From an uncultured virus (IMG/VR IMGVR_UViG_3300034279_000522) (lineage: Duplodnaviria > Heunggongvirae > Uroviricota > Caudoviricetes), in IMG/VR virus record IMGVR_UViG_3300034279_000522: 64,000 nt of DNA; one strand, given 5' to 3'. The translations under genes were made by a program, and so were the position numbers. Below the pieces are notes generated by a model. The model was not told where the DNA came from and ran no database searches. It saw only the letters and a program-made list of their open reading frames with translations. This document shows positions 6,893 to 46,104 of this stretch, piece after piece (within the stretch, counting starts at the first letter, position 1; each line of letters opens with the position of its first letter).

Positions 6893-6923
6893 AAAAGGGG
6901 GACTTAATTGTCCCCCTTTTTTT
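6893..6923. terminator. Bidirectional intrinsic terminator between convergent operons
   Basis: AAAAGGGGGAC-ttaatt-GTCCCCCTTTTTTT. Confidence 0.9.
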
Positions 6924-9588
6924 ATCCGAAAGATCTTTTATTCTGGAACCTTTGCCAACTACTGTCTTCAGTTCTGACCGTATCCATCGGTAGAGATCCG
7001 CTACCATTATTTTGTTGCGGTGCAGCAGGTTGTTGAATTACAGTTGGTGGTGGAACATTAATAACTGGCGCAGTATCTTCTCTAGCACTATCTGTCATTT
7101 CTTTTAAATTCGCCGCAGCAGTATTATTCCCAGTTTCCAAATTGCTCTTGGTAATTTGATTAGTTTTAATTGAACCTGCTGTATTAGGTGTGAATAATTC
7201 TGGTCCATTTTCACCAACCAGATATGAACCCTTGGCAGATACTGGACCACCTTCTGCTCTCGCTCCGTCGACGGATTCAGTTGAACCCTCTGTTGAGTCT
7301 TCATTACCTGCTCTGGAAATATCTCTTGCTGCAAGACCAGCGTCAATTGCAAATGACGCAGCAGTTCCCGCTCCAGGAACAGTAGAGGCGACACCCGACG
7401 CTACTTCACCTGCAGCGCCAACGAAGTCTCCTTGTAGTGCACGCATGGCACCAAACCCAAGACCAGCAATTGCACCAATAATTGGAATCTTTTTCAGTAG
7501 AGATTTACCAACTGCCTTTGCGCCTATTTTAGCAGCACCCTTTGTAGCAATCTTGCCACCAACTTTAGACATTCCCTTTTCTGCGACCTTGCTGATAGCA
7601 CCTTTTGCTTTACTGAGCATGCCCATACCACTCTCAGCAATTTTACCAGCGGTGGCACCCTTTGCGGTGTTTTTGCCGATAAATTGAGATGCTTTATTAA
7701 ACATCCCTTTACCGCTTTCACTAACTCCCGCAATACGATCTCGCATCACTTTACCAATTCGAGACTGCTTAGCAGCACCAGCAAGAGGTCTACCATTCTT
7801 GTCTAATAATTGTTCTGCTCGTAAACCTCTGTTTTTAACAAGGTCAGTCGCCTTTGTTCTCAGAGTATTTGCAGTTCCCCTTACTCGATCAACAGCACCA
7901 TCTACTGCATTGGTGCCTCTCTCGAATACACCACCTGCTTTTGCACCAAAGTTGGAGAGACGACTAGAGTATCTTTGATTTTCTAGTTTTTTAAATAGAC
8001 CCTGACCGCCAGCTTTGAACCCAGCATACCCAGCAGCGATCCCGCCAAACAGAGATCCTCCACCTTCATCTTGCTCACCGTTACCAGTTGTAGGAGTTTC
8101 TGGTGTGACTCTAGTGTTTGCAGATTCTGTTCCGCCGATAACTACTTTCGGGGTAGATTGTTCTTTCGCTTCTACTGTTGCAGATGCCTTTTCGGCGTTT
8201 TGTTTATCAATATTTTCAGCACGTTTTTGGGCGTCTGCAGATGCTTGTTCTGCTTCTGCCTGTGCTATTTTGTTGCGAGTCATTACATCTTTTACGCTGG
8301 AACTTGGGTCTAACTGTTTTTTGCCAGAAGGTGCAACACCAGCACGTTTGAATAACTTATCTTTAATCTCTGTGATGAGTTGTTTGATTTCAGTTAAGAT
8401 AGATGCAACATCATTCTTATCTCCTACTACAACTCCACCTTTTGCAGATTGAATCTTTACCTTTGGTTGTATAGATTCTTTGTGTTTTGCTTCCAGAGTT
8501 TTATTAATCTCTTCCATTGAAACAGGTTTACCATCTTTTCTATACGAGAAATCTTTCTCGGAAGATGGTTTGATGCCTTGCTGCTCTAAAATCTTCTTTT
8601 GTTCTTCAGTAAGATTTACCATTTTATCTACAGATGTAAATTCTGCAACAGATTGACTTGCAGACTGATTCGTTTCTGTTGCGGTGTCATTTGACGAAGA
8701 CTGACTGGTCGTCGTTGACTTATTAACGTCATTGGCAGACTGATTGGTCGTCGTTGACTTATTAACGTCATTGGTTGACTGACTGGTCGTCGTTGAATTA
8801 TTATTGGTAGACTTATTGGTTTCTGTTTTGCTACCGATTGCCTCAGAAAACATTTTCTTTAAACGTTCTACTTCTGAAAGTCTTTCATTCGATTGATTGG
8901 TTTCATTACGAATTTCTTCGCGACGGGATTCTTGAGATTTGAATATGCTCCCAAGAACTCCGCTCTGCGGCGTCAATCCTTTCTTGAATCCGCCCATGAA
9001 TTCGCTGCCAGCGTTTTTGAAACCTTCTCTGAATCCTTTAGTTGGCGTGCCTTCTCTTCCAGGTTCTTTTGAGTTTCCAAACAATTCTTGTTTCAGACGA
9101 TTGACGAATGTGTCGTCTTTACCTTCTAGTGTTAATCCTTCTGCCTTGAAGCGTTCGCCTAGAGCTTGCTGTTGTAACTCTTTACCAATTTCACCAAGTT
9201 GTCCTGGACCACCACTTTCGCTTCTAGCAATCATTTTTGATGCAAGGTCATTGATGTCTTTGAGTGATTTCTTAAACTCGTCGACCGTCTTGAATTGCAA
9301 TTTTGTAATTGCATCCAACGTATCCTCCATGAGTTTCTTGTCTTGGGATTCCATTGTGCGGATTACATCAGATGTATTCCTTTCGATAGATTGAATAAAA
9401 CTATTTACCAATCTTGCAGATGCTTCCTTATCAGCAGGTCTATTCTTATTAAGATCTAGAACCTTGCGAACTTCAGAGAACAATTTGTCCTTTTCTTCAG
9501 ATTGCATTGGTTTTTCACCAGAACTCGAAGTGTTCTTGGCGGTTTCTATTACCCTCGCAAATCTTTCTGATGCGGACTTGGTTTCCAT
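6922..9588 (-). CDS. Putative tape measure / baseplate hub subunit (gp29-like)
   Basis: 888 aa, helical, with G/A/K-rich amphipathic segments, KKIPIIGAIAGLGFG hydrophobic stretch and RAEGGPV...YLVGENGPELF motif seen in phage tail-length proteins; directly after gp26/gp51. Confidence 0.65.
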   Translation of the reverse strand: METKSASERFARVIETAKNTSSSGEKPMQSEEKDKLFSEVRKVLDLNKNRPADKEASARLVNSFIQSIERNTSDVIRTMESQDKKLMEDTLDAITKLQFKTVDEFKKSLKDINDLASKMIARSESGGPGQLGEIGKELQQQALGERFKAEGLTLEGKDDTFVNRLKQELFGNSKEPGREGTPTKGFREGFKNAGSEFMGGFKKGLTPQSGVLGSIFKSQESRREEIRNETNQSNERLSEVERLKKMFSEAIGSKTETNKSTNNNSTTTSQSTNDVNKSTTTNQSANDVNKSTTTSQSSSNDTATETNQSASQSVAEFTSVDKMVNLTEEQKKILEQQGIKPSSEKDFSYRKDGKPVSMEEINKTLEAKHKESIQPKVKIQSAKGGVVVGDKNDVASILTEIKQLITEIKDKLFKRAGVAPSGKKQLDPSSSVKDVMTRNKIAQAEAEQASADAQKRAENIDKQNAEKASATVEAKEQSTPKVVIGGTESANTRVTPETPTTGNGEQDEGGGSLFGGIAAGYAGFKAGGQGLFKKLENQRYSSRLSNFGAKAGGVFERGTNAVDGAVDRVRGTANTLRTKATDLVKNRGLRAEQLLDKNGRPLAGAAKQSRIGKVMRDRIAGVSESGKGMFNKASQFIGKNTAKGATAGKIAESGMGMLSKAKGAISKVAEKGMSKVGGKIATKGAAKIGAKAVGKSLLKKIPIIGAIAGLGFGAMRALQGDFVGAAGEVASGVASTVPGAGTAASFAIDAGLAARDISRAGNEDSTEGSTESVDGARAEGGPVSAKGSYLVGENGPELFTPNTAGSIKTNQITKSNLETGNNTAAANLKEMTDSAREDTAPVINVPPPTVIQQPAAPQQNNGSGSLPMDTVRTEDSSWQRFQNKRSFG
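8699..8796 (-). repeat. 39-bp in-frame tandem repeat (about 2.5 copies, 13-aa unit like STTTSQSTNDVNK)
   Basis: gactgaYtggtcgtcgttgacttattaacgtcattgg at 8699 and 8738, partial copy at 8777. Confidence 0.9.
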
Positions 9589-9746
9589 TATTGTTGCTGC
9601 CTTTGCTTATCTGCTTTTTCTTTTAAGTGCATTGCCAATAAACCAACATAAACTTCCCTTTCCCAAGGAATCATATTTTCAAGTTCACTTAACGAATATT
9701 TATGTTCGTGCATTAAAATAAAGTTGGTCTTATAATGATTCCTCAT
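9588..9746 (-). CDS. gp51: gp51-like baseplate hub assembly protein (52 aa from ATG; frame open back to the gp26 end)
   Basis: Manual translation (ITLSHDN)MRNHYKTNFILMHEHKYSLSELENMIPWEREVYVGLL resembles the short gp51 of cyanophage-type T4 relatives; its stop overlaps the next ATG (TAATG). Confidence 0.85.
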   Translation of the reverse strand: MRNHYKTNFILMHEHKYSLSELENMIPWEREVYVGLLAMHLKEKADKQRQQQ

Positions 9747-9776
9747 GTTGTCATGAGAAAGGGTTATTCGAAAAAA
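9739..9776 (-). other. Candidate programmed -1 ribosomal frameshift signal
   Basis: Minus-strand T TTT TTC (9776-9770) in the gp26 frame, then 9 nt, then hairpin TTTCTCATG-acaa-CATGAGGAA (9760-9739). Confidence 0.65.
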
Positions 9777-10444
9777 CTTTCTACACCGTCGAGGAAAATT
9801 ACATTATTTGTTGAACAGTTCGAGCAATCGTACTCAATCTTATGTTCGACTCTGGGCATAGAAAGAAAGAATTCTGTAATCTTCTTAAACTGTGAAGAGG
9901 TTAGATTGTCAACAAATTGCTCTACGTCTTTTCGTTGAATATCTTTAGTTGTGAAGACTTCATCTGTAGTGTAGACACTATCGATGCAAGAAACTACTAA
10001 ATCATATGTTACGGAATCGCCTCCCATATCGATCGAAGTTGGATACCGCATAATAACCCCAAGACCGTTTCCGAAATCGATTTTATTTGTATGACCCTCG
10101 GTAATGGTGGGTTTAATTGTTGTCAAGTCAAGTTCCGCTGCAGTCTTATGACCGCACTCACCACATACCAAATTAAACTCGGTAATCTGACCAATAGATT
10201 CAGAGCGAAGTTTAATGAAGATATTTTGGAGTTCAAAGAACGGGAGATCTTTGCCTACCAATTTACCGAAACTACAAACGTCGACAATTTCTTGCATCAC
10301 GTTTAACATTTCAGATTGATCTTCAGATTCTGATGCCATGATCAGCAACTTTTCTTCTCTAACTAAGAATGGTCTGAATTTAACTCGCTCTTTACTTCCA
10401 ATCATTTCAACGTAAAACGTTGGTGTTTCCATAACAGGTAACAT
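9764..10444 (-). CDS. gp26: gp26-like baseplate hub protein
   Basis: VKFRPFLVREEKLL, FIKLRSESIG, two CxxC motifs, MRYP, FFLSMP, ends ESFFE; AGGAG RBS. Confidence 0.88.
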   Translation of the reverse strand: MLPVMETPTFYVEMIGSKERVKFRPFLVREEKLLIMASESEDQSEMLNVMQEIVDVCSFGKLVGKDLPFFELQNIFIKLRSESIGQITEFNLVCGECGHKTAAELDLTTIKPTITEGHTNKIDFGNGLGVIMRYPTSIDMGGDSVTYDLVVSCIDSVYTTDEVFTTKDIQRKDVEQFVDNLTSSQFKKITEFFLSMPRVEHKIEYDCSNCSTNNVIFLDGVESFFE

Positions 10445-10461
10445 AATATTCTCCTAATAAT

Positions 10462-11166
10462 TTATCCGAGGGGTTGCCCTCTGTCCGCATATGTATCGCC
10501 AGCCAGTCCACCAAGCACATTTTCCATTCTTGATCCGACATTTTGCTGCAGTCTCCAATTTCTAAATGTAAAGGTTATTGGCAGTCTAACGAATTGTGTA
10601 TTGGACCATGCTAATGAAACAGGTGCCATTGCTCTAGGCCATGCTTCTTCCATGATCCATGTTTGTGTTACTTGGTCGTTTTGATCCAGTGAATTTAAAA
10701 CGATTTGACACGTATAATCCTCATAATATCCAACATATCGTTTCTCAGGATTTACGATCTTGCGCATCCATGTGTCGAAGTATTTCTTTACTTTCCAGTC
10801 TTTATCACAAAGGAAAGTAAATGTTGCAGATTCGCCAGTATAGTCTAGAAAAGTTGCTCGATTCTCGACACGGTTATTATACTTGAATGGTTTTGAACCC
10901 ATCACTAATCCAGGAAAGATTGCTTCTTCGCACATTAGTGATGTATAAGCAGTGTTATTATTTTCGGGAGTGTTTTTCTGTCCCAGAAGAAATTCTGATG
11001 CTTCTGGAACTCCAGGAATATTTAGAAGTGCATTGGTAATGCTATTTTCCAAACCATTCATACATTTCGGTGTGCCGAGAATTACTTCGAATCTGTGTGA
11101 ACGTGCTAAGTCCTTTGCACCCACTTCTGCGAGAAATTCTTGTATCCCGTTGCCTGCCGCTGCCAT
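10462..11166 (-). CDS. Tail-tube-fold protein (gp54/gp19-like tube initiator)
   Basis: LARSHRFEV, YFDTWMRKI, EAWP...LAW...ITFTFRNW resembles the gp19 fold; located between gp2 and gp26. Confidence 0.7.
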   Translation of the reverse strand: MAAAGNGIQEFLAEVGAKDLARSHRFEVILGTPKCMNGLENSITNALLNIPGVPEASEFLLGQKNTPENNNTAYTSLMCEEAIFPGLVMGSKPFKYNNRVENRATFLDYTGESATFTFLCDKDWKVKKYFDTWMRKIVNPEKRYVGYYEDYTCQIVLNSLDQNDQVTQTWIMEEAWPRAMAPVSLAWSNTQFVRLPITFTFRNWRLQQNVGSRMENVLGGLAGDTYADRGQPLG

Positions 11167-11738
11167 TAGTATTTACTCCTCGAGTCTCTGAATACTTCTT
11201 CTTTTGTTTTTTTCTGGAATGCTTCAAGGGGTAAAAATATGGCACTTTTCCAGTCGATGGGATTTATCTTCATAAATCTTGATTGCACATGAGTTGTCAA
11301 ATAATGCTTGATGCAAGGTTTAACCTCATTTGCAGTGCTAATGCTCTGTAACATTTGATACGACATTTGAATTTTGGTAGTGGGACTAAATGTTTTTGAA
11401 TTTGTGTAATCAAGCAACTCGCCTAGAATCTTTCCTCTTACCAGATATGGTGCGTAGTGCAGATTGATACCATAAAACCCTCCAGGTGCTGGACCGAATG
11501 GCAGCACTAACGGGAAGGCATCATAGAATGGTAATTCGTTTTTCCATTTTGGATCGTAATAGTACATATACATCGAACCGATTTCGATGTTTGACTTTAG
11601 TTCTCCAATATCAGATTGCATTGCTGTATTCGGCGATAAACTCGCGCCGACTAATTTTTGAGCATTGCGCATATACCACCAGATAGACTTTTGTCCATCC
11701 CCAGCTTTAGCACGAAGGTTTTCGAAAGGATTTGCCAT
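11166..11738 (-). CDS. gp2: DNA end protector gp2
   Basis: MYMYYYDPKWKNELPFYDAFPLV, GINLHY, PCIKHYL. Confidence 0.9.
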   Translation of the reverse strand: MANPFENLRAKAGDGQKSIWWYMRNAQKLVGASLSPNTAMQSDIGELKSNIEIGSMYMYYYDPKWKNELPFYDAFPLVLPFGPAPGGFYGINLHYAPYLVRGKILGELLDYTNSKTFSPTTKIQMSYQMLQSISTANEVKPCIKHYLTTHVQSRFMKINPIDWKSAIFLPLEAFQKKTKEEVFRDSRSKY

Positions 11739-28091: not shown

Positions 28092-31000
28092 ATGGCACTG
28101 AATTTAAATACATCTCCGTATTATGATGACTTTGATGAGGCGAACAAGTTTCATAGAATTCTCTTCAAACCTGGATATGCGGTTCAGGCTCGCGAACTTA
28201 CACAATTACAAACCATTCTCCAAAATCAAGTTAATAAGTTCGGCGACCATATTTTCAAGAATGGCGCGATCGTTTCAGGTTGCGACGTTCAGATTGATAA
28301 TGAATTATCATATGTAAAAATTGATGCAAATGCTGCTGGAAATGCACGACTGCCAGAATATATCGGTAGAACAGTCGAGGGCGGTAACAATCTTACAGCA
28401 GTAATCGTAGACGCAATTGAAGCAACAGCAACAGATCCAGGAACTCTTTACCTGAGATACACAAGCGGTGATGGTAGCACAAATGCTGTCCACTTCACTG
28501 GCGCAGAAACTCTTACAGTTTTGCCAACTCCAGACCCAGAGGATACAGACCCTCTAGCAGATGATATATTTACTGTTCAAGCACTTGAAGTTGATACTGA
28601 CGTATTGACAAATAACTATTGGGGTCGTGCCACTCGCATGACTGTCGGTGAAGGTATTCTTTATATCGACGGTAAATTTATTCTCCATAGTTCGCAGACA
28701 ATTTATCTTTCAAAGTATACTGGCAACCCAACTGGTAGTGTATGCGTTGGTGCAGATGAGCAAGTATTAGACACGGGAGACGGTGTAGTGGGCGAGACTC
28801 TTCTCGATCCAGCACAAGGCACATATAACTTTGCTGCTCCTGGCGCAGATAGATACTATGTATCGACTGACCTAATTTTCGTCAATATTGGGGATACAAT
28901 CCCAGACGGATATTATGAAGTTGCAACAGTTGTTTCTGGTGGTCTTAATAGAACACATACCTCTGACATCTATGCCAAACTTGGCGACAATCTAGCACGC
29001 AGAACATATGATGAATCAGGTAATTATACGACAAAGGCATTTCCTGTTCTTGTTCGCGAACATCTAAATGTTGGTGGCAATAACGGTCTTTATACCGAAG
29101 AACTTGGTGGTGATGAATTTCTTCTTGCAGTCGGTCTTGAAGCGGGTAAAGCATATGTTCGCGGTTATGAGTACGAAACTCGCCAGACAGAATATGCTAT
29201 TACTGAAAAGGGTATTGACACCGTACAGAAATATAGTGTTCCCATTAGTTCTGCTTATGGCAACTATGTTGTAGTAACAGACTATAAGGGTGTTCTGCCA
29301 CTAGATGGTTCTAAGATTTCTCTACGCACCGACCCGCAAAACGGCGTTTCTGGTTCACAGACAGCAGTTCAAGGTACTGAAATTGGTACTGCTCGTGTTC
29401 GTCACATTGAACATGTTGGACCTGATGCTCCAGGAACTGCAACTGCAGTGTATAACATCTACGTTTACGATGTTCAGATGACAGCAGGAGACTTCGCCGA
29501 CGTTAGTGGATTGTATTACTCGACCAGTGGAACCAACGATGGTTATGCTGACGTTGTTGAATCTGTATTGAAGTCATCACAATATAATAAACTACTCTAT
29601 AGAATGCCATCGCGTGCTACTAAGACAATCAAACCACCATTTCCTTCTGGTAGTTATGAAACATCGTTATATTATACTAAGGTATATGAAAATATTGATA
29701 TAACATCGGGTGTTGGTAGCATTACACTATCGGGCAATGAGTTCTTTATCCAAGATCAAAATGATGCGATTGAAACTTACATCAATAGAAATCTTTTGAT
29801 GGTTCGAGATACTGGTGGTGCAATTGTTGATCTAACAGTAGGCACAGTTGATGCACAGGATCCTTCTTCGCAAATTATTAGTTTTTCTGGACTTGGTTTC
29901 TCTGATACGGTTACAGTATATTCTACAGTCGAAGCAAACTTTGCTGCGCCTCTTAGGAAAACTCTGAACCGAGCGAGACATGTTGCGTTTGACCTTTCAC
30001 TAAAAATTCCTACTACTGGAGTAAATACTAGCACTGAAGTTATTACATATAATAATCACGGTCTGCAAACGAATGATAAAATCAAGTATAAAGCGAATGG
30101 CGGAACTCCGATCGGCGGACTTACTGATGGAACTGAATATTTCGCAATCAATCTTGGGACGAATACATTTTCGGTTTCTGCATCTTCGGGTGGTTCAGCA
30201 ATAAATCTTTCGGGTACAGGTAACAATAATCAATACTTCTTCAAGGTAGATGGCGCTGCGTCATTAAACTTGGGCGTTGCTGACGTATTCTCTGTTGATG
30301 CTGTTTACAGAGCACCAGTTGGAACCACTACACGTGCGGCCGCTGTAACAACAGGTACTGATATCACCTCGCAATATACGTTGGATAATGGTCAGCGTGA
30401 TAACACATACGAACTTGCTAAACTTATACAAGCAAATAATGCACCTTCCCTGGAAGGTTTTAATCTGATTGTCAAGTTTAGTTACTTTACTCATGTCACA
30501 TTGTCAACGAATGCTGGTTACTTCGCGGTCGACTCATATGATGTATTGGATAGTGCAGAACCTGATAGTGCCTTTATCAAGACATACGAGATTCCAATTT
30601 ATACTTCACCAACGACTGGTGAATCGTATGACCTACGCGACACGCTGGACTTCCGAGTAAGAATTACCGACTCAGTTACACCTGCTACATTTGCAACAAT
30701 CGAGTCAGTACCAGTCAATCCAGCAAATTCAACTGGAACAATATTTAAACCATTGGGATTGAGTAATCTTACTATTCCTCGTCCTGAGCAAGAAATTAAT
30801 ATCAACTACGAATATTACGTTGGTCGTAAAGACAAGATCGTAATGGATGACCATGGAGTGTTCAGCGCAGTTAGTGGAACTCCATCACTAACTCCTGTCG
30901 AACCACTTACTCCAGAAAACGCGATGTGTATTGCGATCGTTACAATTCCACCATATCCTTCGCTTGCTCCTAATGTTGCAAAGTCAACAGGGCGCAATGA

Positions 31001-34000
31001 ATATGGTGTAACTTTCCGCACCCTTGATAATCGACGCTATACAATGCGCGATATTGGTGCAATTGAACAACGTGTTTCTCGCCTAGAATATTATACTACT
31101 CTGACACTTCTCGAAAAAGCAACAGAGTCTCTGTTTATTCCGAGTGCCACAGATGAAATGTTGAATAGATTTAAACATGGTATTCTAGTAGATGCGTTTA
31201 CTGGACACAATGTAGGTAATCCAAAGGATCTCAACTATAGTTGCTCGATTGATGCAGTCAATCAAGAACTCCGTCCTTACTTTAATATCGAAAATGTTGA
31301 TCTAATTTTTGATTCTGCAAATTCTATTGGCGTAAAAAAGACAGGCGATCTTCTAACACTTCCATATAACTATGGTGTTCTTACTCAGAATAAATTTGCT
31401 TCGAAGTCTAGAAACTGCGTTGGAGAACTCCTATTCAATTACATTGGAGATATGACCCTAGATCCTCCAGTTGATAACTGGACAGATACTGCACAACTTC
31501 CTGACCTCGCAGTAAACTTTGACGGCAACTACGACAACTTTGCTGCCATGGCAAATGCATGGGGAACTCAATGGAATGACTGGCAGGACATCGTAACTGG
31601 TCGTTCGATTTCGACCGATACAACTACAACAGGTGGACAGACTCGCGTATCTGGTGACACTCTTTTCCAAGAGCAAATTCAGATCTCAACGACAACCACT
31701 ACGCAGCGTCAAACACGTCAAGGTGTGACTATGGGTGTTACTCCAGAAACTACGACGAGGGATCTTGGTAATCGCGTAACAAATGCTTCTATCATTCCAT
31801 ATATGAGAAGTGTAACAATTACAGTTAAAACTAAGAGATTAAAACCTCTGACAAGAATCTATCCATTCTTTGACGGTATTGATGTTACAGCACATTGTCG
31901 CCCACTATCAAGTGCTGCTCTAACTGCATCACCGACTGATCCAGCAGAATATTCTGCATATGCTATTGCTGGTCCAACGGGTGTTTATGGTGCTCCGTTG
32001 GTTACTGATGCCAATGGCGAACTTGCAATTCAGTTTAAAATTCCTGCTGGTACGTTTAGAACAGGAACCAAGAACTTTAGAGTTTGCGACGATGCATTTA
32101 ATAGATCACCATTCATTACAACTTCAGCGACAAATTCATTCTCCGCGAATGGTCTTTCGCAGGTGGTCGAGGGAACTGTTGTTTCTACGAGAGAGGCAAA
32201 AGTATCTTTCACTAATGTTAGTGATTCTCGTTCGGTGACTGAAAACAATACTACTGCAAATCGCATCGGCGAGAGAACAGTTGGAACAATTCAGAATACT
32301 ACAGTAAATAACACCTTTACGACTGTTAACAACACTACAAACGTTTCTAATGTTACTAACAATACAATAGAAGTTAATGAAACCAATGTTGTAAATACGG
32401 TGGTTAATAATATTACTCTAGTGGAAGAAATTACTAATATTACTAATAATCCCACTATTGTTGTTGAGAGAGAAGTTCCAGTTCCTCCAATTATACCGCC
32501 ACCACCTCCGCCTCCACCGCCACCTCCTCCTCCTGGGCCACCAGCAGAACCTGAGTTGGTAGAGTTTAATTTCGACGATAATGGGTTTCCAGATTTTGGA
32601 AATCTTGGGTTCTTTGGTATTGGCCCTTTCGGAGCATTAGATCCACTCGCACAAAGTTTCTTTGTTGATGGTATGCCATTTGGAACATTCGCAACTGGTC
32701 TGGATGTATACTTCAGAACTAAGGGAACTGCTCCAATTACTCTACAACTTCGTGAGATGGTTAACGGATTTCCATCAGAGAAGGTTCTTCCATTCGGCGA
32801 AGTTACTTTGAGTGCAGACGAGGTTGCTGTATCAACTGAGAATCTCGCAGGTGAAGTAACATCATTCGCAGAAACTCGCTTCACATTCCCATCACCAGTA
32901 TATCTGCAAAACAATACAGAATATTGTTTCGTTCTTCTACCTGCGGGTAACGATCCTGGATATACTGCATGGGTTTCGGAACTCGGTGAAAATGAAGTAG
33001 GTATTTCTGGTGTTTCTAAGAGAATTTCAGAACAACCAAATGTTGGTATGTTGTTCACTTCTGCAAACAATCGCACATGGAGCGAAAAGCAAGCAGAAGA
33101 TATGAAGTTTACTCTGTATCGCGCAGTCTTTGATACATCAGTTATCTCGACTGCCAAGTTCCAGAATTCTAACTATGACTATCTTGCACTTTCAGAGCAG
33201 ATGCTTCTTGTTTCTAATGATGCAGTGACCCCGACCAAGTTCACTGCTGGTGAAAAGGTTTATGTCGAGGGGCATAATTCTGATGCTGATGAACCAAAGT
33301 ATGGTTATGTTAAGCAATATGATCCGTTGTATAATGTTCTGAAGATTGTTGTGCAGGAAGGTGTATTTACTGCCGCAGATATAATCACAAACGGAACAAT
33401 CAAAACTACAGTTACTGAAGTTGAAAATAAACTGATCAACTCTATCCAGACTAATATCGGTTACATGGACTTCACGCCAACTACGGGTGTTTGGACTTAT
33501 GCCAAGACTGCAAGTGGAGCATCTAGTGCAGGATCTACATACGATCGTCTGACGTTTGGTGAAACAAATGACATCCTAACAGAAGCAGCAATTTTCTCAA
33601 AATCAAACGAGACTGCTGATCTTGGCGGTAATAAGTCAATGAATCTTCGGTTTGGTATGAAAACAATGACTGATACAGTTTCTCCTGTGATCGATCTTAG
33701 AAAGTGTTCATTGATTTGTATTTCTAACTTCATCAATTCAGATGATGGTAATAGAGATGAAGATACTAATGTTGGTACTGCAAGTTCTAAATATATTTCG
33801 CGCCGAGTTAATCTTGATGGTAACTCAGAAGATTTGAGGGTCTATCTGAGTAATTATCTACCAGCAGGAACTTCAGCAAGAATATATGCTAAGTTGCAGA
33901 ATGCATCAGACTCTAGAAACTTTGAAGATCTTGATTGGTTGGAACTAGAGACGAGCGTATCGCCACTAAGTTCTACTGCCGCTGCTGGATTTGTTGAGTA

Positions 34001-34184
34001 TGAATATAAAATACCAAAGGCAAATAAAGTTGACGAACTAGAAGATGAACCCTTCACATACACGTATTCGAATGCGACTTATACCAAATTTGACAAAATG
34101 GCGATTAAGATTGTCATGTTCTCTAACAACAGTTCTATTGTTCCTAAGTTTAAGGAACTGAGAGCAATCGCGCTGCAGGTATAA
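28092..34184 (+). CDS. Large virion structural protein (VrlC / DUF4815-like)
   Basis: NTSPYYDDFD...RILFKPGYAVQARELTQLQ, LARRTYDESGNY, GKAYVRGYE, RRYTMRDIG, DPLAQSF, LRAIAL. Confidence 0.8.
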   Translation: MALNLNTSPYYDDFDEANKFHRILFKPGYAVQARELTQLQTILQNQVNKFGDHIFKNGAIVSGCDVQIDNELSYVKIDANAAGNARLPEYIGRTVEGGNNLTAVIVDAIEATATDPGTLYLRYTSGDGSTNAVHFTGAETLTVLPTPDPEDTDPLADDIFTVQALEVDTDVLTNNYWGRATRMTVGEGILYIDGKFILHSSQTIYLSKYTGNPTGSVCVGADEQVLDTGDGVVGETLLDPAQGTYNFAAPGADRYYVSTDLIFVNIGDTIPDGYYEVATVVSGGLNRTHTSDIYAKLGDNLARRTYDESGNYTTKAFPVLVREHLNVGGNNGLYTEELGGDEFLLAVGLEAGKAYVRGYEYETRQTEYAITEKGIDTVQKYSVPISSAYGNYVVVTDYKGVLPLDGSKISLRTDPQNGVSGSQTAVQGTEIGTARVRHIEHVGPDAPGTATAVYNIYVYDVQMTAGDFADVSGLYYSTSGTNDGYADVVESVLKSSQYNKLLYRMPSRATKTIKPPFPSGSYETSLYYTKVYENIDITSGVGSITLSGNEFFIQDQNDAIETYINRNLLMVRDTGGAIVDLTVGTVDAQDPSSQIISFSGLGFSDTVTVYSTVEANFAAPLRKTLNRARHVAFDLSLKIPTTGVNTSTEVITYNNHGLQTNDKIKYKANGGTPIGGLTDGTEYFAINLGTNTFSVSASSGGSAINLSGTGNNNQYFFKVDGAASLNLGVADVFSVDAVYRAPVGTTTRAAAVTTGTDITSQYTLDNGQRDNTYELAKLIQANNAPSLEGFNLIVKFSYFTHVTLSTNAGYFAVDSYDVLDSAEPDSAFIKTYEIPIYTSPTTGESYDLRDTLDFRVRITDSVTPATFATIESVPVNPANSTGTIFKPLGLSNLTIPRPEQEININYEYYVGRKDKIVMDDHGVFSAVSGTPSLTPVEPLTPENAMCIAIVTIPPYPSLAPNVAKSTGRNEYGVTFRTLDNRRYTMRDIGAIEQRVSRLEYYTTLTLLEKATESLFIPSATDEMLNRFKHGILVDAFTGHNVGNPKDLNYSCSIDAVNQELRPYFNIENVDLIFDSANSIGVKKTGDLLTLPYNYGVLTQNKFASKSRNCVGELLFNYIGDMTLDPPVDNWTDTAQLPDLAVNFDGNYDNFAAMANAWGTQWNDWQDIVTGRSISTDTTTTGGQTRVSGDTLFQEQIQISTTTTTQRQTRQGVTMGVTPETTTRDLGNRVTNASIIPYMRSVTITVKTKRLKPLTRIYPFFDGIDVTAHCRPLSSAALTASPTDPAEYSAYAIAGPTGVYGAPLVTDANGELAIQFKIPAGTFRTGTKNFRVCDDAFNRSPFITTSATNSFSANGLSQVVEGTVVSTREAKVSFTNVSDSRSVTENNTTANRIGERTVGTIQNTTVNNTFTTVNNTTNVSNVTNNTIEVNETNVVNTVVNNITLVEEITNITNNPTIVVEREVPVPPIIPPPPPPPPPPPPPGPPAEPELVEFNFDDNGFPDFGNLGFFGIGPFGALDPLAQSFFVDGMPFGTFATGLDVYFRTKGTAPITLQLREMVNGFPSEKVLPFGEVTLSADEVAVSTENLAGEVTSFAETRFTFPSPVYLQNNTEYCFVLLPAGNDPGYTAWVSELGENEVGISGVSKRISEQPNVGMLFTSANNRTWSEKQAEDMKFTLYRAVFDTSVISTAKFQNSNYDYLALSEQMLLVSNDAVTPTKFTAGEKVYVEGHNSDADEPKYGYVKQYDPLYNVLKIVVQEGVFTAADIITNGTIKTTVTEVENKLINSIQTNIGYMDFTPTTGVWTYAKTASGASSAGSTYDRLTFGETNDILTEAAIFSKSNETADLGGNKSMNLRFGMKTMTDTVSPVIDLRKCSLICISNFINSDDGNRDEDTNVGTASSKYISRRVNLDGNSEDLRVYLSNYLPAGTSARIYAKLQNASDSRNFEDLDWLELETSVSPLSSTAAAGFVEYEYKIPKANKVDELEDEPFTYTYSNATYTKFDKMAIKIVMFSNNSSIVPKFKELRAIALQV

Positions 34185-34185
34185 T

Positions 34186-34413
34186 ATGGCAAAATTCGCA
34201 CTTCAAGATACGAATAAATACATTAGAGATGGAGACTCCAAAGCAATTGTCTCTACTGATAAACACGAATTAGCAGCATATAATGCACAACGTGAAAGAC
34301 TTAAACAAATGAAGTCATATGGAATTGAGATTAATGAATTAAAGAATGAGATGACGGAAATTAAATCTTTGTTAACACAAATTCTCAACAATCATGAAGG
34401 TAGGAAAGCATGA
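34186..34413 (+). CDS. Small coiled-coil hypothetical protein
   Basis: RD..SKAIV...EINELKNEMTEIKSLL; tightly coupled to both neighbours. Confidence 0.75.
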   Translation: MAKFALQDTNKYIRDGDSKAIVSTDKHELAAYNAQRERLKQMKSYGIEINELKNEMTEIKSLLTQILNNHEGRKA

Positions 34414-34892
34414 GCACAATTACACTGAGGTCCGCCAAGGGCGTACCTTTAACAAATAATGAGGTTGATGATAACTTTACCAACCTCAATGACGATAAGT
34501 ATCAATCTGGTGACAGTCCATCGTTCGAGAACCTGACACTAACTGGCGCATTTATCCCATCGGTAACTGCATCGGTTGCTGCAGCAGGAACCGATCAAGG
34601 CACTGCAACTGCGCTGACAAAAACAGTCAATATTGTCACCTCGGCAACAACAAACCAAGGGGTCAAACTCCCGACTGCTGCTGTAGGCGTTTCTGTTACT
34701 ATTATCAATACTACTGCGGTTACCATTAAGGTTTATCCAAGCACATCTGACGTCATTGACGAAGGAACTGTGAACGTTGCTGTTAATCTGGCACCATATA
34801 GTTCTGTTCAGTTAGTTGCACAGGATACGCAAGACTGGTATCGCATTACCAATCTTATTGTTTACGACACAAGTGGTAACAGGTTAAACTAA
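34410..34892 (+). CDS. Putative fibre/adaptor structural protein
   Basis: ITLRSAKGVPLTNNEVDDNF N-terminus typical of phage fibre anchors; ATGA overlap with upstream gene. Confidence 0.65.
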   Translation: MSTITLRSAKGVPLTNNEVDDNFTNLNDDKYQSGDSPSFENLTLTGAFIPSVTASVAAAGTDQGTATALTKTVNIVTSATTNQGVKLPTAAVGVSVTIINTTAVTIKVYPSTSDVIDEGTVNVAVNLAPYSSVQLVAQDTQDWYRITNLIVYDTSGNRLN

Positions 34893-34893
34893 A

Positions 34894-37800
34894 ATGAATC
34901 CTCTAAAGGTCAAAGCATCTACGACGCCAATTACGTCTGCTGTTTTCAGTGGTCTAGAACCTTTGACCAATGCAGAGGTTCAGAACTATATTGCCAATGT
35001 TATCACAACTAAGTTCGCGACGGATACAACTGGATCTGGCGCTGCTGAGATAAACATCACAACAGACAATTCGGGGACAGGAACTTCTATTGGAACGTTC
35101 GTTGATACGGATAGAACTGAAGCGACAGGAACACATCCTGCCACGGGTGACACAACTAGCACTACATACTATGTAAAGCAAGTAACTGCTCCTGCTTCTG
35201 AAAATGTTACTGCTCGTCCTGTTGCTTGGTTATCTGATGGCATTCGCCGAATGACAGATGGCGATTTAGATGGCGTTTTAGATACTGTAATCTCAGCGTT
35301 TGTTTCTGAGTCTGAGTATACTGCTGGTCAATATAGACTACAAGCAACTGCTCCGACAGGTGGAACTTGGCAAGCAAGATACACACTCACTGATGTTGCG
35401 AACGGCGGAAATACCACAACCTACCTGTGGCAAAAAACCGCTGCTTCGACAGCTGCCAACGATTCTCTTGCACCATTAAAAAGTAACGATGCCAACTCGT
35501 TGAAGATCATGACCGCTGCCGAAATTGAGCAGTTGGTTCCGAACTTCCGTAATCGCATTATCGATACTAATATCGGAACTTATAAACTCCAAGCGACTGC
35601 TCCAGGTGGCGGAACATGGGTTGAATTAGGAACCTCTACTACTGATACCAGAGAGCAAGTTTCTCCACAAAATTATGTTGGTAACTATACTGGTAATTAT
35701 TCCGGAAATTATGTAGGTCCACAATATACTGCATTCTTTACAAGTCCTGCATACTCCCGTGCGTTTACTGGTAACTATGGCGGAACTGCAACATATACAG
35801 GATTTTTCTCTGGTCCAGGAACAACGTATAGTGGATTCTTCACTGGATTTTTCACTGGTCCTGGATATAGTTCTCCATATAGTGGCGTGACATATTCACC
35901 TGCTGCATCCTATACTGGTAACTACGTAGGTCCAGCAAACTATTCTGGTACATATACTGGTCTTGAATTGGTTGGATATACTGGTTTCTATAGTGGAGGT
36001 CCATTCTATTCCACAACTGGTGGCACATATAGCACAAGTTATACTGGATATTATAGTAGTGCACCAACGTCAGGTCCAGCATATTCTGGGACATATACTG
36101 GTCCTGGACCTACGCGATTTGCTGTAGAATTCTACACTGGATTTTATACTGGATATTACTCAGGTCCATCTATAAACTATACTGGAACACCATATTCTAC
36201 TTCTGTTCCATATACTGGTTTTTATACTGGTCCAGCATTTTACTCTGGTCCAGGAGCATCATATACAGGGTATTTCCAATCACCAGCATATACTGGTTTC
36301 TATAGCAGTGGTAGCGCCAATTATACAGGGTTCTTCCAAGCACAAGCATATGCTGGTAACTACAGTGGTGGTGGTGGATCCTATACGGGGTATTTCCAAT
36401 CACCAGCATATACTGGTACCTATGTTGGAGGTGGCACCAATTATACTGGGTTATTTGTAGCTGACGTATTTGTTGGATACTACTCTGGTCCAGGAGCATC
36501 GTATACTGGTTATTATGATGGCGAAGGTCCACCAGAGCAAGATTTCTTTGGTCCAATTTTAACTCCATATGCGGGTAATTATACTGGTGCGCCTGTCACT
36601 CAGAATTATGCTGGATATTATACTGGTGCACCAACGACACTATACTATGAAGGTATAAGTCCTGGACCTCCAATCGCTCCAGGTGAACCTGGAGAACCAG
36701 TTCCTAATTACCGAGAAGAGTTTGGTCCAGGAATTTATGTTGGATATTATACTAGCACAGGTCCAGGAGTTTACACTGGTTATTATCTAGGAACAGTTCC
36801 AACCATTGTACCATATACTGGTTTCTATAGTGGTGGTGGAACAACCAACTATGCTGGTCCAGCATACCAAGCACAGATCCCCATTTTCGGCGGCAGCATG
36901 CCTGCATTCTACTTGGGGTATTTCAGCGGTGGTCCAGGAGCAACGTATACTGGATATTACAGTAGCACCTACACTGGTTTCTACAGTGGCGCAGGAACGA
37001 CGTATACTGGATACTATACGCTGCAATGGGATATTACTGGGTTCAACGGACTGCCAACAGGATCCATTCCTGCATTTTATAGCGGAACCTTCAGCGGTCC
37101 AGGTACACCCTATACAGGGTATTTCCAATCACCAGCATATACTGGTTTCTACACTGGCGCTCCTACCAATTATACTGGTACTGCATCATACACAGGATAC
37201 TATCTTGGTTCTGGTGGACCATCATTTATGGGTTCTATATATACTGGGTTCGGTGGAAATTTTGCTGCAGGTAATGAGCCAGGAGGGTCGTTTGCGGCGT
37301 TCTATAGTAGTGGTCCAGGAACTTCATATTCAGCAAACTACTCCAGTGCACCAGTTGCATATACTGGTGTATATAGTGGAACGTATAGTCAAAGTGTAGC
37401 ATACGCTGGACTAACAAATTATACTGGACCATCATATTCTGCGACAATTCCAGGATCGACATATACTGGATATTATACTGGTCCAACATATACCACACCA
37501 ACAGGTCCAGCATATGGTCAAACATATTCGGGTAACTACAATGGATTCGTTCCAGGAACTCCATACACTGGAAACTACTCTGGTTCTGCAACCTATACAG
37601 GTTTCTATAGTGGTGTAGGTGGTAGCAATTATACTGCGATTTTCATCAGTCCTGTATATTCAGCAACTTATAGTGGTAGCTTTACTGGCAATTTCTCTGG
37701 TACTGATAACTACACAGGAAACTTTATTGGACCTGCTACATATACTGGTAATTATACTGGTAATTTTACAAGTACGTATACCAATATATATAGTGGGAAC

Positions 37801-37908
37801 TTTACAGGAAACTACTCTGGTACATACTCTGGAACCTATTCAGGCGCGACTGTACTTTCTTCTAAGGATACCGTTTCAACCGTTAAACTTTGGATTAGGA
37901 CTGCATAA
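34894..37908 (+). CDS. Tyr/Gly/Thr-repeat putative fibre protein A (1004 aa)
   Basis: About 260-aa N-terminal domain paralogous to the next gene; [YF]xGx repeats 35671-37845; shared C-terminal KDTxSTVxLWxxTA. Confidence 0.8.
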   Translation: MNPLKVKASTTPITSAVFSGLEPLTNAEVQNYIANVITTKFATDTTGSGAAEINITTDNSGTGTSIGTFVDTDRTEATGTHPATGDTTSTTYYVKQVTAPASENVTARPVAWLSDGIRRMTDGDLDGVLDTVISAFVSESEYTAGQYRLQATAPTGGTWQARYTLTDVANGGNTTTYLWQKTAASTAANDSLAPLKSNDANSLKIMTAAEIEQLVPNFRNRIIDTNIGTYKLQATAPGGGTWVELGTSTTDTREQVSPQNYVGNYTGNYSGNYVGPQYTAFFTSPAYSRAFTGNYGGTATYTGFFSGPGTTYSGFFTGFFTGPGYSSPYSGVTYSPAASYTGNYVGPANYSGTYTGLELVGYTGFYSGGPFYSTTGGTYSTSYTGYYSSAPTSGPAYSGTYTGPGPTRFAVEFYTGFYTGYYSGPSINYTGTPYSTSVPYTGFYTGPAFYSGPGASYTGYFQSPAYTGFYSSGSANYTGFFQAQAYAGNYSGGGGSYTGYFQSPAYTGTYVGGGTNYTGLFVADVFVGYYSGPGASYTGYYDGEGPPEQDFFGPILTPYAGNYTGAPVTQNYAGYYTGAPTTLYYEGISPGPPIAPGEPGEPVPNYREEFGPGIYVGYYTSTGPGVYTGYYLGTVPTIVPYTGFYSGGGTTNYAGPAYQAQIPIFGGSMPAFYLGYFSGGPGATYTGYYSSTYTGFYSGAGTTYTGYYTLQWDITGFNGLPTGSIPAFYSGTFSGPGTPYTGYFQSPAYTGFYTGAPTNYTGTASYTGYYLGSGGPSFMGSIYTGFGGNFAAGNEPGGSFAAFYSSGPGTSYSANYSSAPVAYTGVYSGTYSQSVAYAGLTNYTGPSYSATIPGSTYTGYYTGPTYTTPTGPAYGQTYSGNYNGFVPGTPYTGNYSGSATYTGFYSGVGGSNYTAIFISPVYSATYSGSFTGNFSGTDNYTGNFIGPATYTGNYTGNFTSTYTNIYSGNFTGNYSGTYSGTYSGATVLSSKDTVSTVKLWIRTA

Positions 37909-37910
37909 CT

Positions 37911-40001: not shown

Positions 40002-40006
40002 ATCTA

Positions 40007-40035
40007 TTGACTTTGTAGCAATTATTATATATACT
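40007..40035 (+). promoter_or_regulatory. Sigma70-type promoter TTGACT-N17-TATACT
   Basis: Near-consensus boxes upstream of the 40071-41893 operon. Confidence 0.6.
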
Positions 40036-40070
40036 GTTAACATGACTATTATTTCTAATGGAGAATTGAA

Positions 40071-40514
40071 TTGATTAATACCTCACCTGTAGTTACTCGC
40101 AAGATCGAAAATCCTTATTGGGCGAACAAAGAACGTCAGCATATTATCGCTGAGTTTTTCTATCCTGATACCAATAAGCGTGTTACTGCATCCATCATGA
40201 ATGATGGTACCAATCGTGACTACGAAGAAGTGATGCGTCTCTTCAGTATTGGGCAGATCGATGCCAATACTGATCGGCGCATGGAAGATCGCAACCAACA
40301 AATCAAACAAAATCTTGAACGCCAGAAGGTTGACAAGACTCGCATGCAGCAAGAACAGTTGTTCGCTGCTAAGTTGGATGCCTTCGAAATCGATGTAGTC
40401 AAGAACTCTAAGAATCGCGATCTAAAGTCTAAGATTCGCAAGTCTAAGACTTTCATGGAAGTCACTGCATATACAGTAATGCTACTGATGCAGGAAGAAA
40501 CGAATGCCGAATAA
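40071..40514 (+). CDS. Hypothetical protein (147 aa)
   Basis: TTG start after GGAG; overlaps the next gene; start uncertain. Confidence 0.7.
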   Translation: MINTSPVVTRKIENPYWANKERQHIIAEFFYPDTNKRVTASIMNDGTNRDYEEVMRLFSIGQIDANTDRRMEDRNQQIKQNLERQKVDKTRMQQEQLFAAKLDAFEIDVVKNSKNRDLKSKIRKSKTFMEVTAYTVMLLMQEETNAE

Positions 40515-41202: not shown

Positions 41203-41215
41203 AGGTTATTAATTG

Positions 41216-42501: not shown

Positions 42502-42502
42502 A

Positions 42503-46054: not shown

Positions 46055-46068
46055 CACAACTCCAAAAT

Positions 46069-46094
46069 TATAAATAGTGTCATAGTAATTTATA
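46069..46094. promoter_or_regulatory. Overlapping divergent late promoters
   Basis: TATAAATA on + at 46069-46076; variant TATAAATT on - at 46094-46087 pointing into the glycosyltransferase operon. Confidence 0.55.
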
Positions 46095-46104
46095 AGGGTT
46101 CCCG

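What the first reader, a model, noticed from the sequence alone, without database searches (positions are those of the whole stretch)
9588..10444. Candidate programmed -1 frameshift fusing gp26 to gp51: a lambda G/GT-like arrangement in a T4-like phage
Seen in sequence: gp26 ends AGT TTT TTC GAA TAA, so a canonical X XXY YYZ slippery heptamer (T TTT TTC) sits one codon before the stop. A -1 slip reads CGA ATA ACC CTT TCT CAT GAC AAC ATG..., exactly the gp51 frame, giving a ~285-aa fusion. A 9-bp hairpin (TTTCTCATG-acaa-CATGAGGAA) starts 9 nt downstream and buries the first gp51 ATG, which has no Shine-Dalgarno. gp51-like sequence (LSHDN) appears to extend upstream of that ATG. Gene order is tube-fold gene, gp26, gp51, putative tape measure. 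Established: long-tailed phages such as lambda place a frameshifted G/GT chaperone pair between the tail tube and tape measure genes. Inference: gp26 and gp26-gp51 are the G/GT equivalents here. I am not aware of this being described for T4-like phages but could not check the literature.
Basis: partly seen in the sequence, partly recalled or inferred. Interest (0 to 1): 0.85.

Follow-up and report, generated by a model that had tools for sequence, protein, structure and literature searches.

The report
Frameshift in T4-like tail chaperone gene
One tail-assembly gene (gp26) of this uncultured freshwater T4-like phage very probably makes a short and a long protein because some ribosomes slip back one base on a strictly conserved TTTTTTC, but a 2022 paper appears to have described this for T4-like phages, so it is a well-supported new example, not a new principle.

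Summary
On the minus strand gp26 (10444..9764, PF12322) ends AGT TTT TTC GAA TAA. The in-phase heptamer lies at 9776..9770. The 52-codon "gp51" ORF (9746..9588) is in the -1 frame, and a slip gives a 285-aa protein.

Comparative evidence supports a programmed -1 frameshift:
- 142 of 167 related loci with a complete gp26 3' end keep NNT TTT TTY 0-1 codons before the stop, with the tail in the -1 frame.
- 17 of 17 lineage representatives keep it, two of them at 54-56% GC.
- Coding conservation runs upstream of any start codon. One relative's tail ORF has no ATG/GTG/TTG at all.
- T-even gp51 (249 aa) is itself a gp26-like domain plus this tail. It aligns without a gap at the junction with the predicted fusion.

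The gp26 N-terminal domain's best structural matches include the HK97 tail assembly chaperone (modest Z). The 9-bp hairpin exists in the window but is not conserved.

The idea is not new. Passages citing Vladimirov, Gautam & Davidson (Virology 2022; not held, unread) describe poly-T frameshift signals in T4-like chaperone genes and T4's two-gene solution. This scan has also noted the same thing in at least 8 other genomes.

Verdict: real, first reading supported, a new member of a known kind.

The parts
9764..10444 (-). gp26, the short chaperone form (TAC-N equivalent), 226 aa
   Evidence: ORF. PF12322 T4_baseplate, E 1.9e-55, 188.4 bits against a cut-off of 24.5. phrog_150 baseplate hub, E 8.5e-57. 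AF2 model pLDDT 88.2.
9770..9776 (-). In-phase slippery heptamer T TTT TTC (codons AGT TTT TTC)
   Evidence: Sequence. In-phase T TTT TTY is kept in 142 of 167 related loci with a complete gp26 3' end and in 17 of 17 lineage representatives.
9764..9766 (-). gp26 stop codon TAA, one codon after the heptamer
   Evidence: In the 142 loci with the heptamer, the stop follows after 1 codon (122 loci) or 0 codons (20 loci).
9588..9770 (-). -1 frame extension read after the slip: 60 codons from CGA at 9770..9768, stop at 9590..9588. This is the C-terminal tail of the long form.
   Evidence: The tail matches phrog_634 (E 2.2e-22) and positions 242-282 of phrog_150. It aligns with the C-terminus of T-even gp51.
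9588..9746 (-). The 52-codon ORF that gene callers take as a separate 'gp51'. Its ATG has no SD.
   Evidence: At this position relatives have TTG or CTT. Called starts of 150 homologues scatter over more than 40 codons.
9739..9760 (-). 9-bp hairpin, 9 nt after the heptamer. Present in the window but not conserved.
   Evidence: Fold, z -2.58. 0 compensatory pairs in 14 distinct relatives. One pair is broken in 9 of 14, and another is present only in the window.
6922..9588 (-). 888-aa tape-measure-like gene (gp29 position). Its ATG overlaps the stop of the -1 frame tail (TAATG).
   Evidence: Residues about 738-874 match annotated tape measure proteins of 4 GenBank phage records (Serratia BUCT805, Roseobacter CRP-6, two records of Pseudoalteromonas C7), among 13 matching records, at 37-68% identity over 4-11% of the query. 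No Pfam or NCBIfam hit.
10462..11166 (-). Tube-fold gene directly upstream of gp26 (gp54-like, my reading); not the gp19-like tube gene beside the sheath
   Evidence: phrog_45 tail tube, E 8.5e-32. PF23849, 22.8 bits, below the cut-off of 27. The clearer gp19-like match is at 57226..57765.
6893..6920 (-). Terminator-like hairpin (11 pairs plus a T run) that closes the gp26 / tail / tape-measure unit

Best explanation
gp26 is the tail (hub) assembly chaperone gene of this T4-like phage, and it encodes two proteins.

Most ribosomes stop at TAA 9766..9764 and make the 226-aa short form. A minority slip back one base while two tRNA-Phe sit on U UUU UUC (9776..9770). They then read CGA and 59 more codons, and make a 285-aa long form that carries the short form plus a 60-residue tail.

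The pair corresponds to lambda gpG/gpGT and to T4 gp26/gp51. T4 encodes the short and long forms as two separate genes.

Shown here: the sequence features, their conservation and the homology.

Inferred:
- that slippage is ribosomal;
- that the nearby stop codon, and in many lineages an SD-like GGAG about 5-15 nt upstream, help it;
- that the short domain coats the tape-measure protein while the tail recruits a tube or hub partner.
For: 1. Heptamer and frame are conserved. 61 of 61 IMG/VR relatives with a complete gp26 3' end, down to 30% identity, have the T run and the tail in the -1 frame. Over all 176 loci held, 167 have a complete 3' end. Of these, 142 have an in-phase T TTT TTY 0-1 codons before the stop and an HMM hit to the tail in the -1 frame. 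Many loci are near-duplicates: searches printed 35 and 44 distinct junctions. The cultured phages that keep it are S-CREM1, P-RSM6, Pseudomonas Milchi, Stenotrophomonas BUCT608, Desulfovibrio 7757, Variovorax V45v66 and Acinetobacter nACB2.

2. Synonymous choice. 17 of 17 lineage representatives use NNT TTT TTY. The summed log10 probability under local codon usage is -9.66, though the lineages are not fully independent. The two loci at 54-56% GC have P(TTT|Phe) of about 0.2. T-even gp26, which has no tail downstream, uses TTC TTT in 3 of 3 loci.

3. No own start.
- The Desulfovibrio phage tail ORF (57 codons) has no ATG/GTG/TTG.
- In L054 the first start is codon 20, inside the conserved part.
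- Among the candidate starts listed (up to five per lineage, 17 lineages), an SD-like motif was flagged before 4, in 3 lineages.
- In 150 database homologues the called starts scatter: 15 as here, 63 lie 2-12 aa upstream, 43 lie more than 12 aa upstream, and 29 are truncated.

4. Collinearity with T4. RB32 gp51 (249 aa) matches PF12322 over residues 1-201 (E 4.2e-55). It also matches phrog_150 over 3-248 and phrog_634 over 147-246. The in-silico -1 products of 14 lineages align with three T-even gp51 proteins with no gap at the junction. The profile E-values are 4e-16 to 3e-13. BLASTP of the window fusion against IT22 gp51 gives 4e-12 over residues 22-281.

5. Position. The gene lies directly upstream of a tape-measure-like gene and downstream of a tube-fold gene.

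6. Fold. Of 48,161 PDB representatives, ranks 1-3 for residues 1-94 are 3fgx_B (Z 7.5), 2ob9_B, the HK97 tail assembly chaperone (Z 6.8, rmsd 3.8, 83 aligned), and 3klu_A, YqbN (Z 6.5).

7. Literature. T4 gp26 and gp51 are listed as hub assembly chaperones, and gp51 is absent from the particle (PMC3004832, passages). Passages citing the 2022 paper were read.
Against: - No protein, ribosome or reporter data exist for this phage.
- The window does have an ATG 20 nt after the stop, so some free 52-aa product cannot be excluded.
- The hairpin shows no covariation, and changes in relatives break its pairs. Other clades fold differently or hardly at all. There is therefore no conserved downstream stimulator.
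- Phe-Phe is conserved at the protein level even in T-even gp26. Part of the T run is thus explained by the protein, and the phase of the run is confounded with it.
- 25 of 167 loci lack a canonical heptamer. These are 3 Tevenvirinae (two-gene arrangement), Vibrio phage D504 (an ATG overlaps the stop), and 21 Kuttervirus-like loci with GAR ATT TTC ATY TAA.
- The structural Z scores are under 8, which the tool says can reflect a common arrangement. Foldseek found nothing at E <= 0.001.
[quoted passage not shown] I read this, through PMC10885494, as T4's two genes, but I could not check it.
Confidence: 0.8

Rival explanations
1. Transcriptional slippage. RNA polymerase adds one extra U on the T6 run, so a minority of mRNAs encode the fusion in one frame. 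The protein would be identical to the frameshift product.
For: The site is a homopolymer run. One inserted U gives the same ..SFF R.. junction (my reading of the sequence). Earlier notes of this scan report U9 runs at this spot in other lineages (e1-5404900 and e1-5341704; not checked by me). [quoted passage not shown]
Against: - The run here is only 6 T (7 in some clades). From general knowledge (recalled), efficient polymerase stuttering needs longer runs.
- The stop codon lies 0-1 codons after the run in 142 of 142 loci. That matters for a paused ribosome and not for a polymerase.
- Two RNA-library contigs bridge the junction without an indel. This is weak, because contigs drop rare variants and the libraries may hold DNA.
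Confidence: 0.1
2. There is no fusion. The 52-aa gp51 is a separate small protein started at ATG 9746 by reinitiation after gp26 terminates 20 nt upstream.
For: An ATG is present in the window. GenBank records annotate such small 'baseplate hub assembly catalyst' genes. In Vibrio phage D504 an ATG overlaps the gp26 stop.
Against: - There is no SD, and the ATG sits in a hairpin arm.
- The ATG is TTG or CTT in relatives, and the Desulfovibrio phage has no start codon at all.
- Residues upstream of the ATG are conserved in the -1 frame back to the heptamer.
- T-even gp51 carries the tail fused to a gp26-like domain.
Confidence: 0.07
3. Coincidence. The T run is only the codons of a conserved Phe-Phe, and the -1 frame relation is the usual result of short gene overlaps.
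For: Phe-Phe is nearly invariant in the family (F225 invariant over A1; F224 and F225 invariant in A2). TAATG and ATGA overlaps also give a -1 relation (D504, BUCT608).
Against: The codon choice is NNT TTT TTY in 17 of 17 lineages, against TTC TTT in 3 of 3 T-even gp26 genes. In most clades the tail begins 20-29 nt after the stop, not at an overlap. Only 3 of 45 Phe-Phe pairs in the window are in the slippery form.
Confidence: 0.03

Closest known systems
Tail assembly chaperones of T4-like phages, TAC-N / TAC-NC (Vladimirov, Gautam & Davidson, Virology 2022, 566:9-15; known to me only by title and two citing passages)
   Same: A short and a long chaperone form share an N-terminus. The poly-T -1 frameshift signal lies at the 3' end of the short gene. 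T4 carries one short gene and one long gene that equals short plus downstream part. My own tests reproduce this.
   Different: This is an unannotated instance in an uncultured freshwater phage whose gp26 is at most 34% identical to any GenBank phage. I cannot say which phages, signals or experiments the paper covers.
Phage T4 gp26 (208 aa) and gp51 (249 aa), hub assembly chaperones (PMC3004832, Table 2 passage)
   Same: Same family: PF12322, phrog_150 and phrog_634. The predicted 285-aa product is collinear with gp51.
   Different: In T-even phages the two forms are separate, divergently transcribed genes: 26-25 one way and 51-27-28-29 the other. Their gp26 has non-slippery TTC TTT. Here one locus makes both forms by recoding.
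Lambda gpG/gpGT and the conserved -1 frameshift of tail assembly chaperone genes (Xu, Hendrix & Duda 2004; seen only in reference lists, content recalled)
   Same: Position just before the tape measure gene. A -1 ORF without its own start. An in-phase slippery heptamer near the end of the short ORF. An N-terminal domain whose best structural matches include the HK97 TAC.
   Different: No sequence similarity was found to solved TACs. gp26 is larger and carries a four-Cys zinc-ribbon-like part: C94 and C97, and C208 and C211 (sequence; zinc-finger matches). The heptamer is U UUU UUC, not lambda's G GGA AAG (recalled). The adjacent tube-fold gene is, on my reading, an initiator-type paralogue rather than the gp19-like tube gene.

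Membership tests
Frameshifted tail assembly chaperone pair (lambda G/GT type) | Gene lies immediately upstream of the tape measure gene and downstream of a tube(-fold) gene | tested here: met
   The order is 11166..10462 tube fold, 10444..9764 gp26, 9770..9588 tail, 9588..6922 tape-measure-like. The tube-fold neighbour is not the gp19-like tube gene at 57226..57765.
Frameshifted tail assembly chaperone pair (lambda G/GT type) | Downstream ORF in the -1 frame, overlapping the end of the first, without a conserved start codon or SD | tested here: met
   The -1 ORF is open over 9803..9588. No SD precedes the window ATG. Starts are absent or variable in relatives.
Frameshifted tail assembly chaperone pair (lambda G/GT type) | In-phase X XXY YYZ slippery heptamer in the overlap, conserved among relatives | tested here: met
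   T TTT TTC at 9776..9770. Kept in 142 of 167 loci and 17 of 17 lineage representatives.
Frameshifted tail assembly chaperone pair (lambda G/GT type) | N-terminal domain with the fold of solved tail assembly chaperones | tested here: inconclusive
   VIA-align wide search: 2ob9_B, the HK97 TAC, ranks 2 of 48,161 (Z 6.8, 83 residues aligned). 3klu_A YqbN ranks 3, and 3d8l_A, phage p2 ORF12, has Z 3.2. This is supportive, but all Z are under 8. Foldseek found nothing, and the sequence profile found nothing.
Frameshifted tail assembly chaperone pair (lambda G/GT type) | Two proteins actually made, in a fixed low ratio of long to short | not testable with these tools
   This needs protein or reporter data. 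The RNA contigs only show that the junction is present in RNA libraries.
Frameshifted tail assembly chaperone pair (lambda G/GT type) | Short domain binds the tape measure protein, and the extension binds the tube protein | not testable with these tools
   No binding data are available. This step is inferred by analogy only.
T4 gp26/gp51 family (PF12322 T4_baseplate; phrog_150, phrog_634) | Match to PF12322 above the gathering score | tested here: met
   188.4 bits against a cut-off of 24.5, over residues 13-226.
T4 gp26/gp51 family (PF12322 T4_baseplate; phrog_150, phrog_634) | C-terminal tail homologous to the C-terminus of T4-type gp51 | tested here: met
   The 52-aa ORF matches phrog_634 over 65-116/121 (E 2.2e-22) and phrog_150 over 242-282/282. 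It aligns with RB32, IT22 and WSPA gp51.
T4 gp26/gp51 family (PF12322 T4_baseplate; phrog_150, phrog_634) | Short and long forms encoded by two separate genes (the T-even arrangement) | tested here: not met
   There is one locus in the window, and the long form needs recoding. Separate genes occur only in the 3 Tevenvirinae loci examined.

The most novel reading that the evidence does not exclude
The long form is not made by ribosomal slippage alone. One possibility is that RNA polymerase stutters on the T run and adds one U. Another is that the ribosomal slip is driven by an unusual stimulator set, namely the stop codon 0-1 codons downstream plus an SD-like GGAG embedded in the conserved L-E-G codons, with no downstream RNA structure. 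The frameshift would be the ancestral state of all T4-like phages, and the T-even two-gene layout a later duplication.
Probability: 0.15. Interest if true: 0.45.

Novelty: new member of a known kind. Interest (0 to 1): 0.27.

Why it matters
Three consequences follow.

- **Annotation.** In the records I read, the tail is called as a free-standing "baseplate hub assembly catalyst", as a hypothetical protein, or not at all. None of the 12 records annotates a joined product.
- **Biology.** This places T4-like phages inside the general rule that long-tailed phages make a short and a long tail chaperone from one N-terminus. It also explains why T4 gp51 resembles gp26.
- **Limits.** It does not open a new question. 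The principle appears to be in print since 2022, and this scan has met it repeatedly.

Tried and rejected
- **Complex prediction** of the 52-aa tail with the gp19-like tube protein: no verdict (score 0.00, mark 0.32, partner fold uncertain). This says nothing either way.
- **Foldseek against PDB** for the gp26 model: no match at E <= 0.001.
- **Profile of 19 gp26/gp51 sequences against PDB sequences:** only two chance-level hits at E 0.15-0.2.
- **NCBIfam:** nothing useful for gp26, the tail, the tape-measure-like protein or the tube-fold protein.
- **Rfam over 9400..10000:** two sub-threshold matches on the + strand, and none on the gene strand.
- **RNA-library contigs** (4 runs). Two contigs, X15 at 9556..9876 and X18 at 9627..9805, bridge the junction with no indel. 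Contigs cannot show a rare U7 transcript, and the libraries may contain DNA, so this does not decide between ribosomal and transcriptional slippage. Parts without cover mean nothing.
I used single proteins instead.
- **The hairpin as a conserved stimulator:** rejected.
- **SD-like motif upstream of the heptamer.** A strict motif occurs in 10 of 21 lineage representatives, against a background of 8%. A loose motif occurs in 16 of 21, against 14%. The window has only GGTG. This is confounded by the conserved L-E-G residues, so I keep it as a suggestion only.
- **In-frame natural fusions** are rare. None of the 120 best gp26 homologues listed, of 187 with E <= 1e-5, is longer than 245 aa. One 192-aa fragment, P0173, reads through in frame.
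- **Literature searches** 7, 13, 34, 35, 36 and 79 found no open paper that describes the gp26/gp51 frameshift directly. Two searches led to the citing papers.


Full report
**What is there**

The finding lies on the minus strand of a T4-like structural module. PHROG matches in the window name the following:
- a single-strand DNA binding protein;
- a helicase loader;
- baseplate wedge and hub proteins;
- the sheath (55504..57192);
- the tube (57226..57765);
- the portal, the prohead protease and the scaffold.

The local gene order, in the direction of transcription, is as follows:
- a DNA end protector (11738..11166);
- a tube-fold protein (11166..10462; phrog_45; PF23849 below its cut-off);
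- gp26 (10444..9764, 226 aa; PF12322, 188.4 bits against a cut-off of 24.5);
- a 52-codon ORF (9746..9588; phrog_634 "baseplate hub assembly catalyst");
- an 888-aa protein (9588..6922).

The C-terminal motif region of the 888-aa protein matches annotated tape measure proteins. A strong terminator-like hairpin follows it at 6920..6893. The DNA is held by lake-water metagenome runs. The nearest GenBank phages are Kyanoviridae, at no more than 34% gp26 identity.

**Observation check**

- gp26 ends AGT TTT TTC GAA TAA. The heptamer T TTT TTC (9776..9770) is in the X XXY YYZ phase.
- The -1 frame is open from 9803 to 9588. A slip therefore gives 225 + 60 = 285 residues.
- The hairpin at 9760..9739 is real in this sequence: 9 pairs, z -2.58 for the 86-nt region, and 2 of 200 shuffles as good. 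It holds the ATG of the small ORF.
- No SD-like motif precedes that ATG.
- T6Y runs are rarer in the window than in shuffles, 27 against 59 +/- 11.
- Of 45 Phe-Phe dipeptides in 61 mechanical ORFs, only 3 are in the slippery form. The gp26 one is the only one at a gene's 3' end.

**Conservation**

- A first scan of IMG/VR gave 65 loci. All 61 with a complete gp26 3' end have the T run and a tail homologue in the -1 frame, 20-29 nt after the stop, down to 30% gp26 identity.
- Twelve GenBank phages chosen for spread were read. Seven non-T-even phages keep NNT TTT TTY and the -1 tail: two cyanophages, and phages of Pseudomonas, Stenotrophomonas, Desulfovibrio, Variovorax and Acinetobacter.
- Two more scans added 99 loci.
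- Over all 176 loci, 175 have a gp26 match and 8 lack the 3' end. Of the remaining 167, 142 have the in-phase heptamer 0-1 codons before the stop and an HMM hit to the tail in the -1 frame.
- Many loci are near-duplicates. Searches printed 35 and 44 distinct junctions.
- In 17 lineage representatives the choice NNT TTT TTY is universal. The summed log10 probability under each locus's own codon usage is -9.66. The lineages are not fully independent, so this is a rough figure. Two loci at 54-56% GC have TTT as about 0.2 of Phe codons.

**No start of its own**

- At the position of the window's ATG, close relatives have TTG and the L054 clade has CTT.
- In L054 the first ATG/GTG/TTG is codon 20 of the tail, inside its conserved part.
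- The Desulfovibrio phage tail ORF has no such codon in 57 codons.
- A library-wide search found 762 representatives of the tail at E <= 0.001. In the best 150, the called N-termini scatter: 15 as here, 63 lie 2-12 residues upstream, 43 lie more than 12 upstream and so overlap gp26, and 29 are truncated.
- The residues between the heptamer and the ATG are conserved in the -1 frame (for example R-I/V-T/A-L-S/M-H-D).

**The T4 link**

In three Tevenvirinae, gene 26 is followed by gene 25. Gene 51 lies on the other strand, ahead of genes 27 and 28, and of 29 in RB32.

RB32 gp51 (249 aa) matches the gp26 family model PF12322 over residues 1-201 (E 4.2e-55). It matches phrog_150 end to end, and phrog_634 over residues 147-246. 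T4-type gp51 is therefore a gp26-like domain plus the tail.

The in-silico -1 products of 14 lineages align with three T-even gp51 proteins without a gap at the junction. The profile E-values are 4e-16 to 3e-13. T-even gp26 keeps Phe-Phe but encodes it as TTC TTT in 3 of 3 loci. I infer that the frameshift and the two-gene layout are alternative ways to make the same pair.

**Chaperone nature**

- The AF2 model of gp26 is confident (pLDDT 88.2).
- Foldseek found nothing.
- The exhaustive aligner ranks three chains first for residues 1-94 out of 48,161: an uncharacterised Bacillus protein (Z 7.5), the HK97 tail assembly chaperone 2ob9 (Z 6.8, rmsd 3.8, 83 residues) and YqbN (Z 6.5). Phage p2 ORF12 appears at Z 3.2.
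- These Z values are modest, so I call the fold test supportive but inconclusive.
- The rest of gp26 carries two Cys pairs and matches small zinc-ribbon proteins weakly.
- The T4 literature lists gp26 and gp51 as hub assembly chaperones and says gp51 is not in the particle (PMC3004832, passages).

**Mechanism**

Most likely, two tRNA-Phe re-pair from UUU-UUC to UUU-UUU one base back. The stop codon that follows at once may slow the ribosome; this is inferred.

The hairpin is not a conserved stimulator. In 14 distinct relatives there is no compensatory change, one central pair is broken in 9 of 14, and one pair exists only in the window. Other clades fold differently.

An SD-like motif lies 3-18 nt upstream in 10 (strict) or 16 (loose) of 21 lineage representatives, against backgrounds of 8% and 14%. 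It coincides with conserved L-E-G codons, and the window has only GGTG.

Transcriptional slippage would give the same protein. I rate it at 0.1 because the run is short and the stop is always adjacent. The RNA contigs cannot decide.

**Exceptions**

Of the 167 loci, 25 lack a canonical heptamer:
- the 3 Tevenvirinae;
- Vibrio phage D504, where an ATG overlaps the stop;
- 21 Kuttervirus-like loci with a conserved GAR ATT TTC ATY TAA and an open, conserved -1 frame.

**Prior art**

Eight accepted literature searches were run.

[quoted passage not shown] It cites Vladimirov, Gautam & Davidson 2022.
- PMC10885494 (passages) says, citing the same paper, that some T4-like phages carry one short gene and one longer fused gene instead of frameshifting.
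- The paper itself is not held. I saw its title only.

This scan has also noted the same arrangement in at least 8 other genomes, and one of those notes cites the same paper. I looked at these notes after my own analysis, and they agree with it.

**Verdict**

It is a new, unannotated member of a known kind. Interest is low to moderate.

Noticed in passing
L075 and L157-L176 (Kuttervirus-like, Ackermannviridae): None of these 21 loci has a canonical heptamer. All keep GAR ATT TTC ATY TAA. The -1 frame stays open and conserved from ..F-H-L-(I/M)-F-E.. onward. In the Salmonella phage SS9 record, about 500 nt after gp26 carry no annotated gene. This may be a non-canonical A AUU UUC slip site.
   Followed up: partly
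L071 (Vibrio phage D504), gp26 stop at 3224-3226: There is no slippery heptamer (CTT TTC AAG TAA). The tail-like ORF starts with an ATG that overlaps the stop (TAATG), and the record annotates only a fragment of it. This may be a lineage that uses coupled reinitiation instead of recoding.
   Followed up: no
L073 (Desulfovibrio phage 7757), after the gp26 stop at 3212-3214: The 57-codon tail ORF contains no ATG, GTG or TTG, so it cannot be started in the ordinary way. The record has no annotation.
   Followed up: partly
window 9586..9590 (minus strand): The ATG of the 888-aa tape-measure-like gene overlaps the stop of the -1 frame tail (TAATG). Its translation may therefore be coupled to ribosomes in the shifted frame as well as to its own weak AAGG.
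   Followed up: no
window 9764..10444 (gp26 residues 94-97 and 208-211): Two Cys pairs (C-G-E-C and C-S-N-C) are brought together in the model like a zinc ribbon. C94 is invariant or nearly so in the two alignments. Two database homologues are named 'Zn finger protein HypA/HybF' by their source. Solved tail chaperones are not known to me to have this (recalled).
   Followed up: partly
P0173 (192-aa database protein): This is a gp26 C-terminal fragment that runs in frame through ..CFF into a tail sequence. It is either a natural in-frame fusion or a homopolymer sequencing error.
   Followed up: no
whole window: T6Y runs are depleted on both strands: 27 found against 59 +/- 11 in shuffles, and every one of the 100 shuffles had at least 27.
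   Followed up: partly
window 8628..8771 region of the 888-aa gene (residues about 245-310): The tape-measure-like protein has a low-complexity Ser/Thr/Asn-rich stretch with a repeated N-D-V-N-K-S-T-T-T unit.
   Followed up: no
window 34410..46144: In this block, ten of the twelve large ORFs scanned have no PHROG match at E <= 1e-5. Six of the twelve lie on the minus strand. The two that match resemble glycosyltransferases weakly. The block sits between the baseplate and neck modules.
   Followed up: no
window 28092..34184: A 2030-aa protein matches phrog_358 (unknown function) with E = 0 (1205.9 bits).
   Followed up: no
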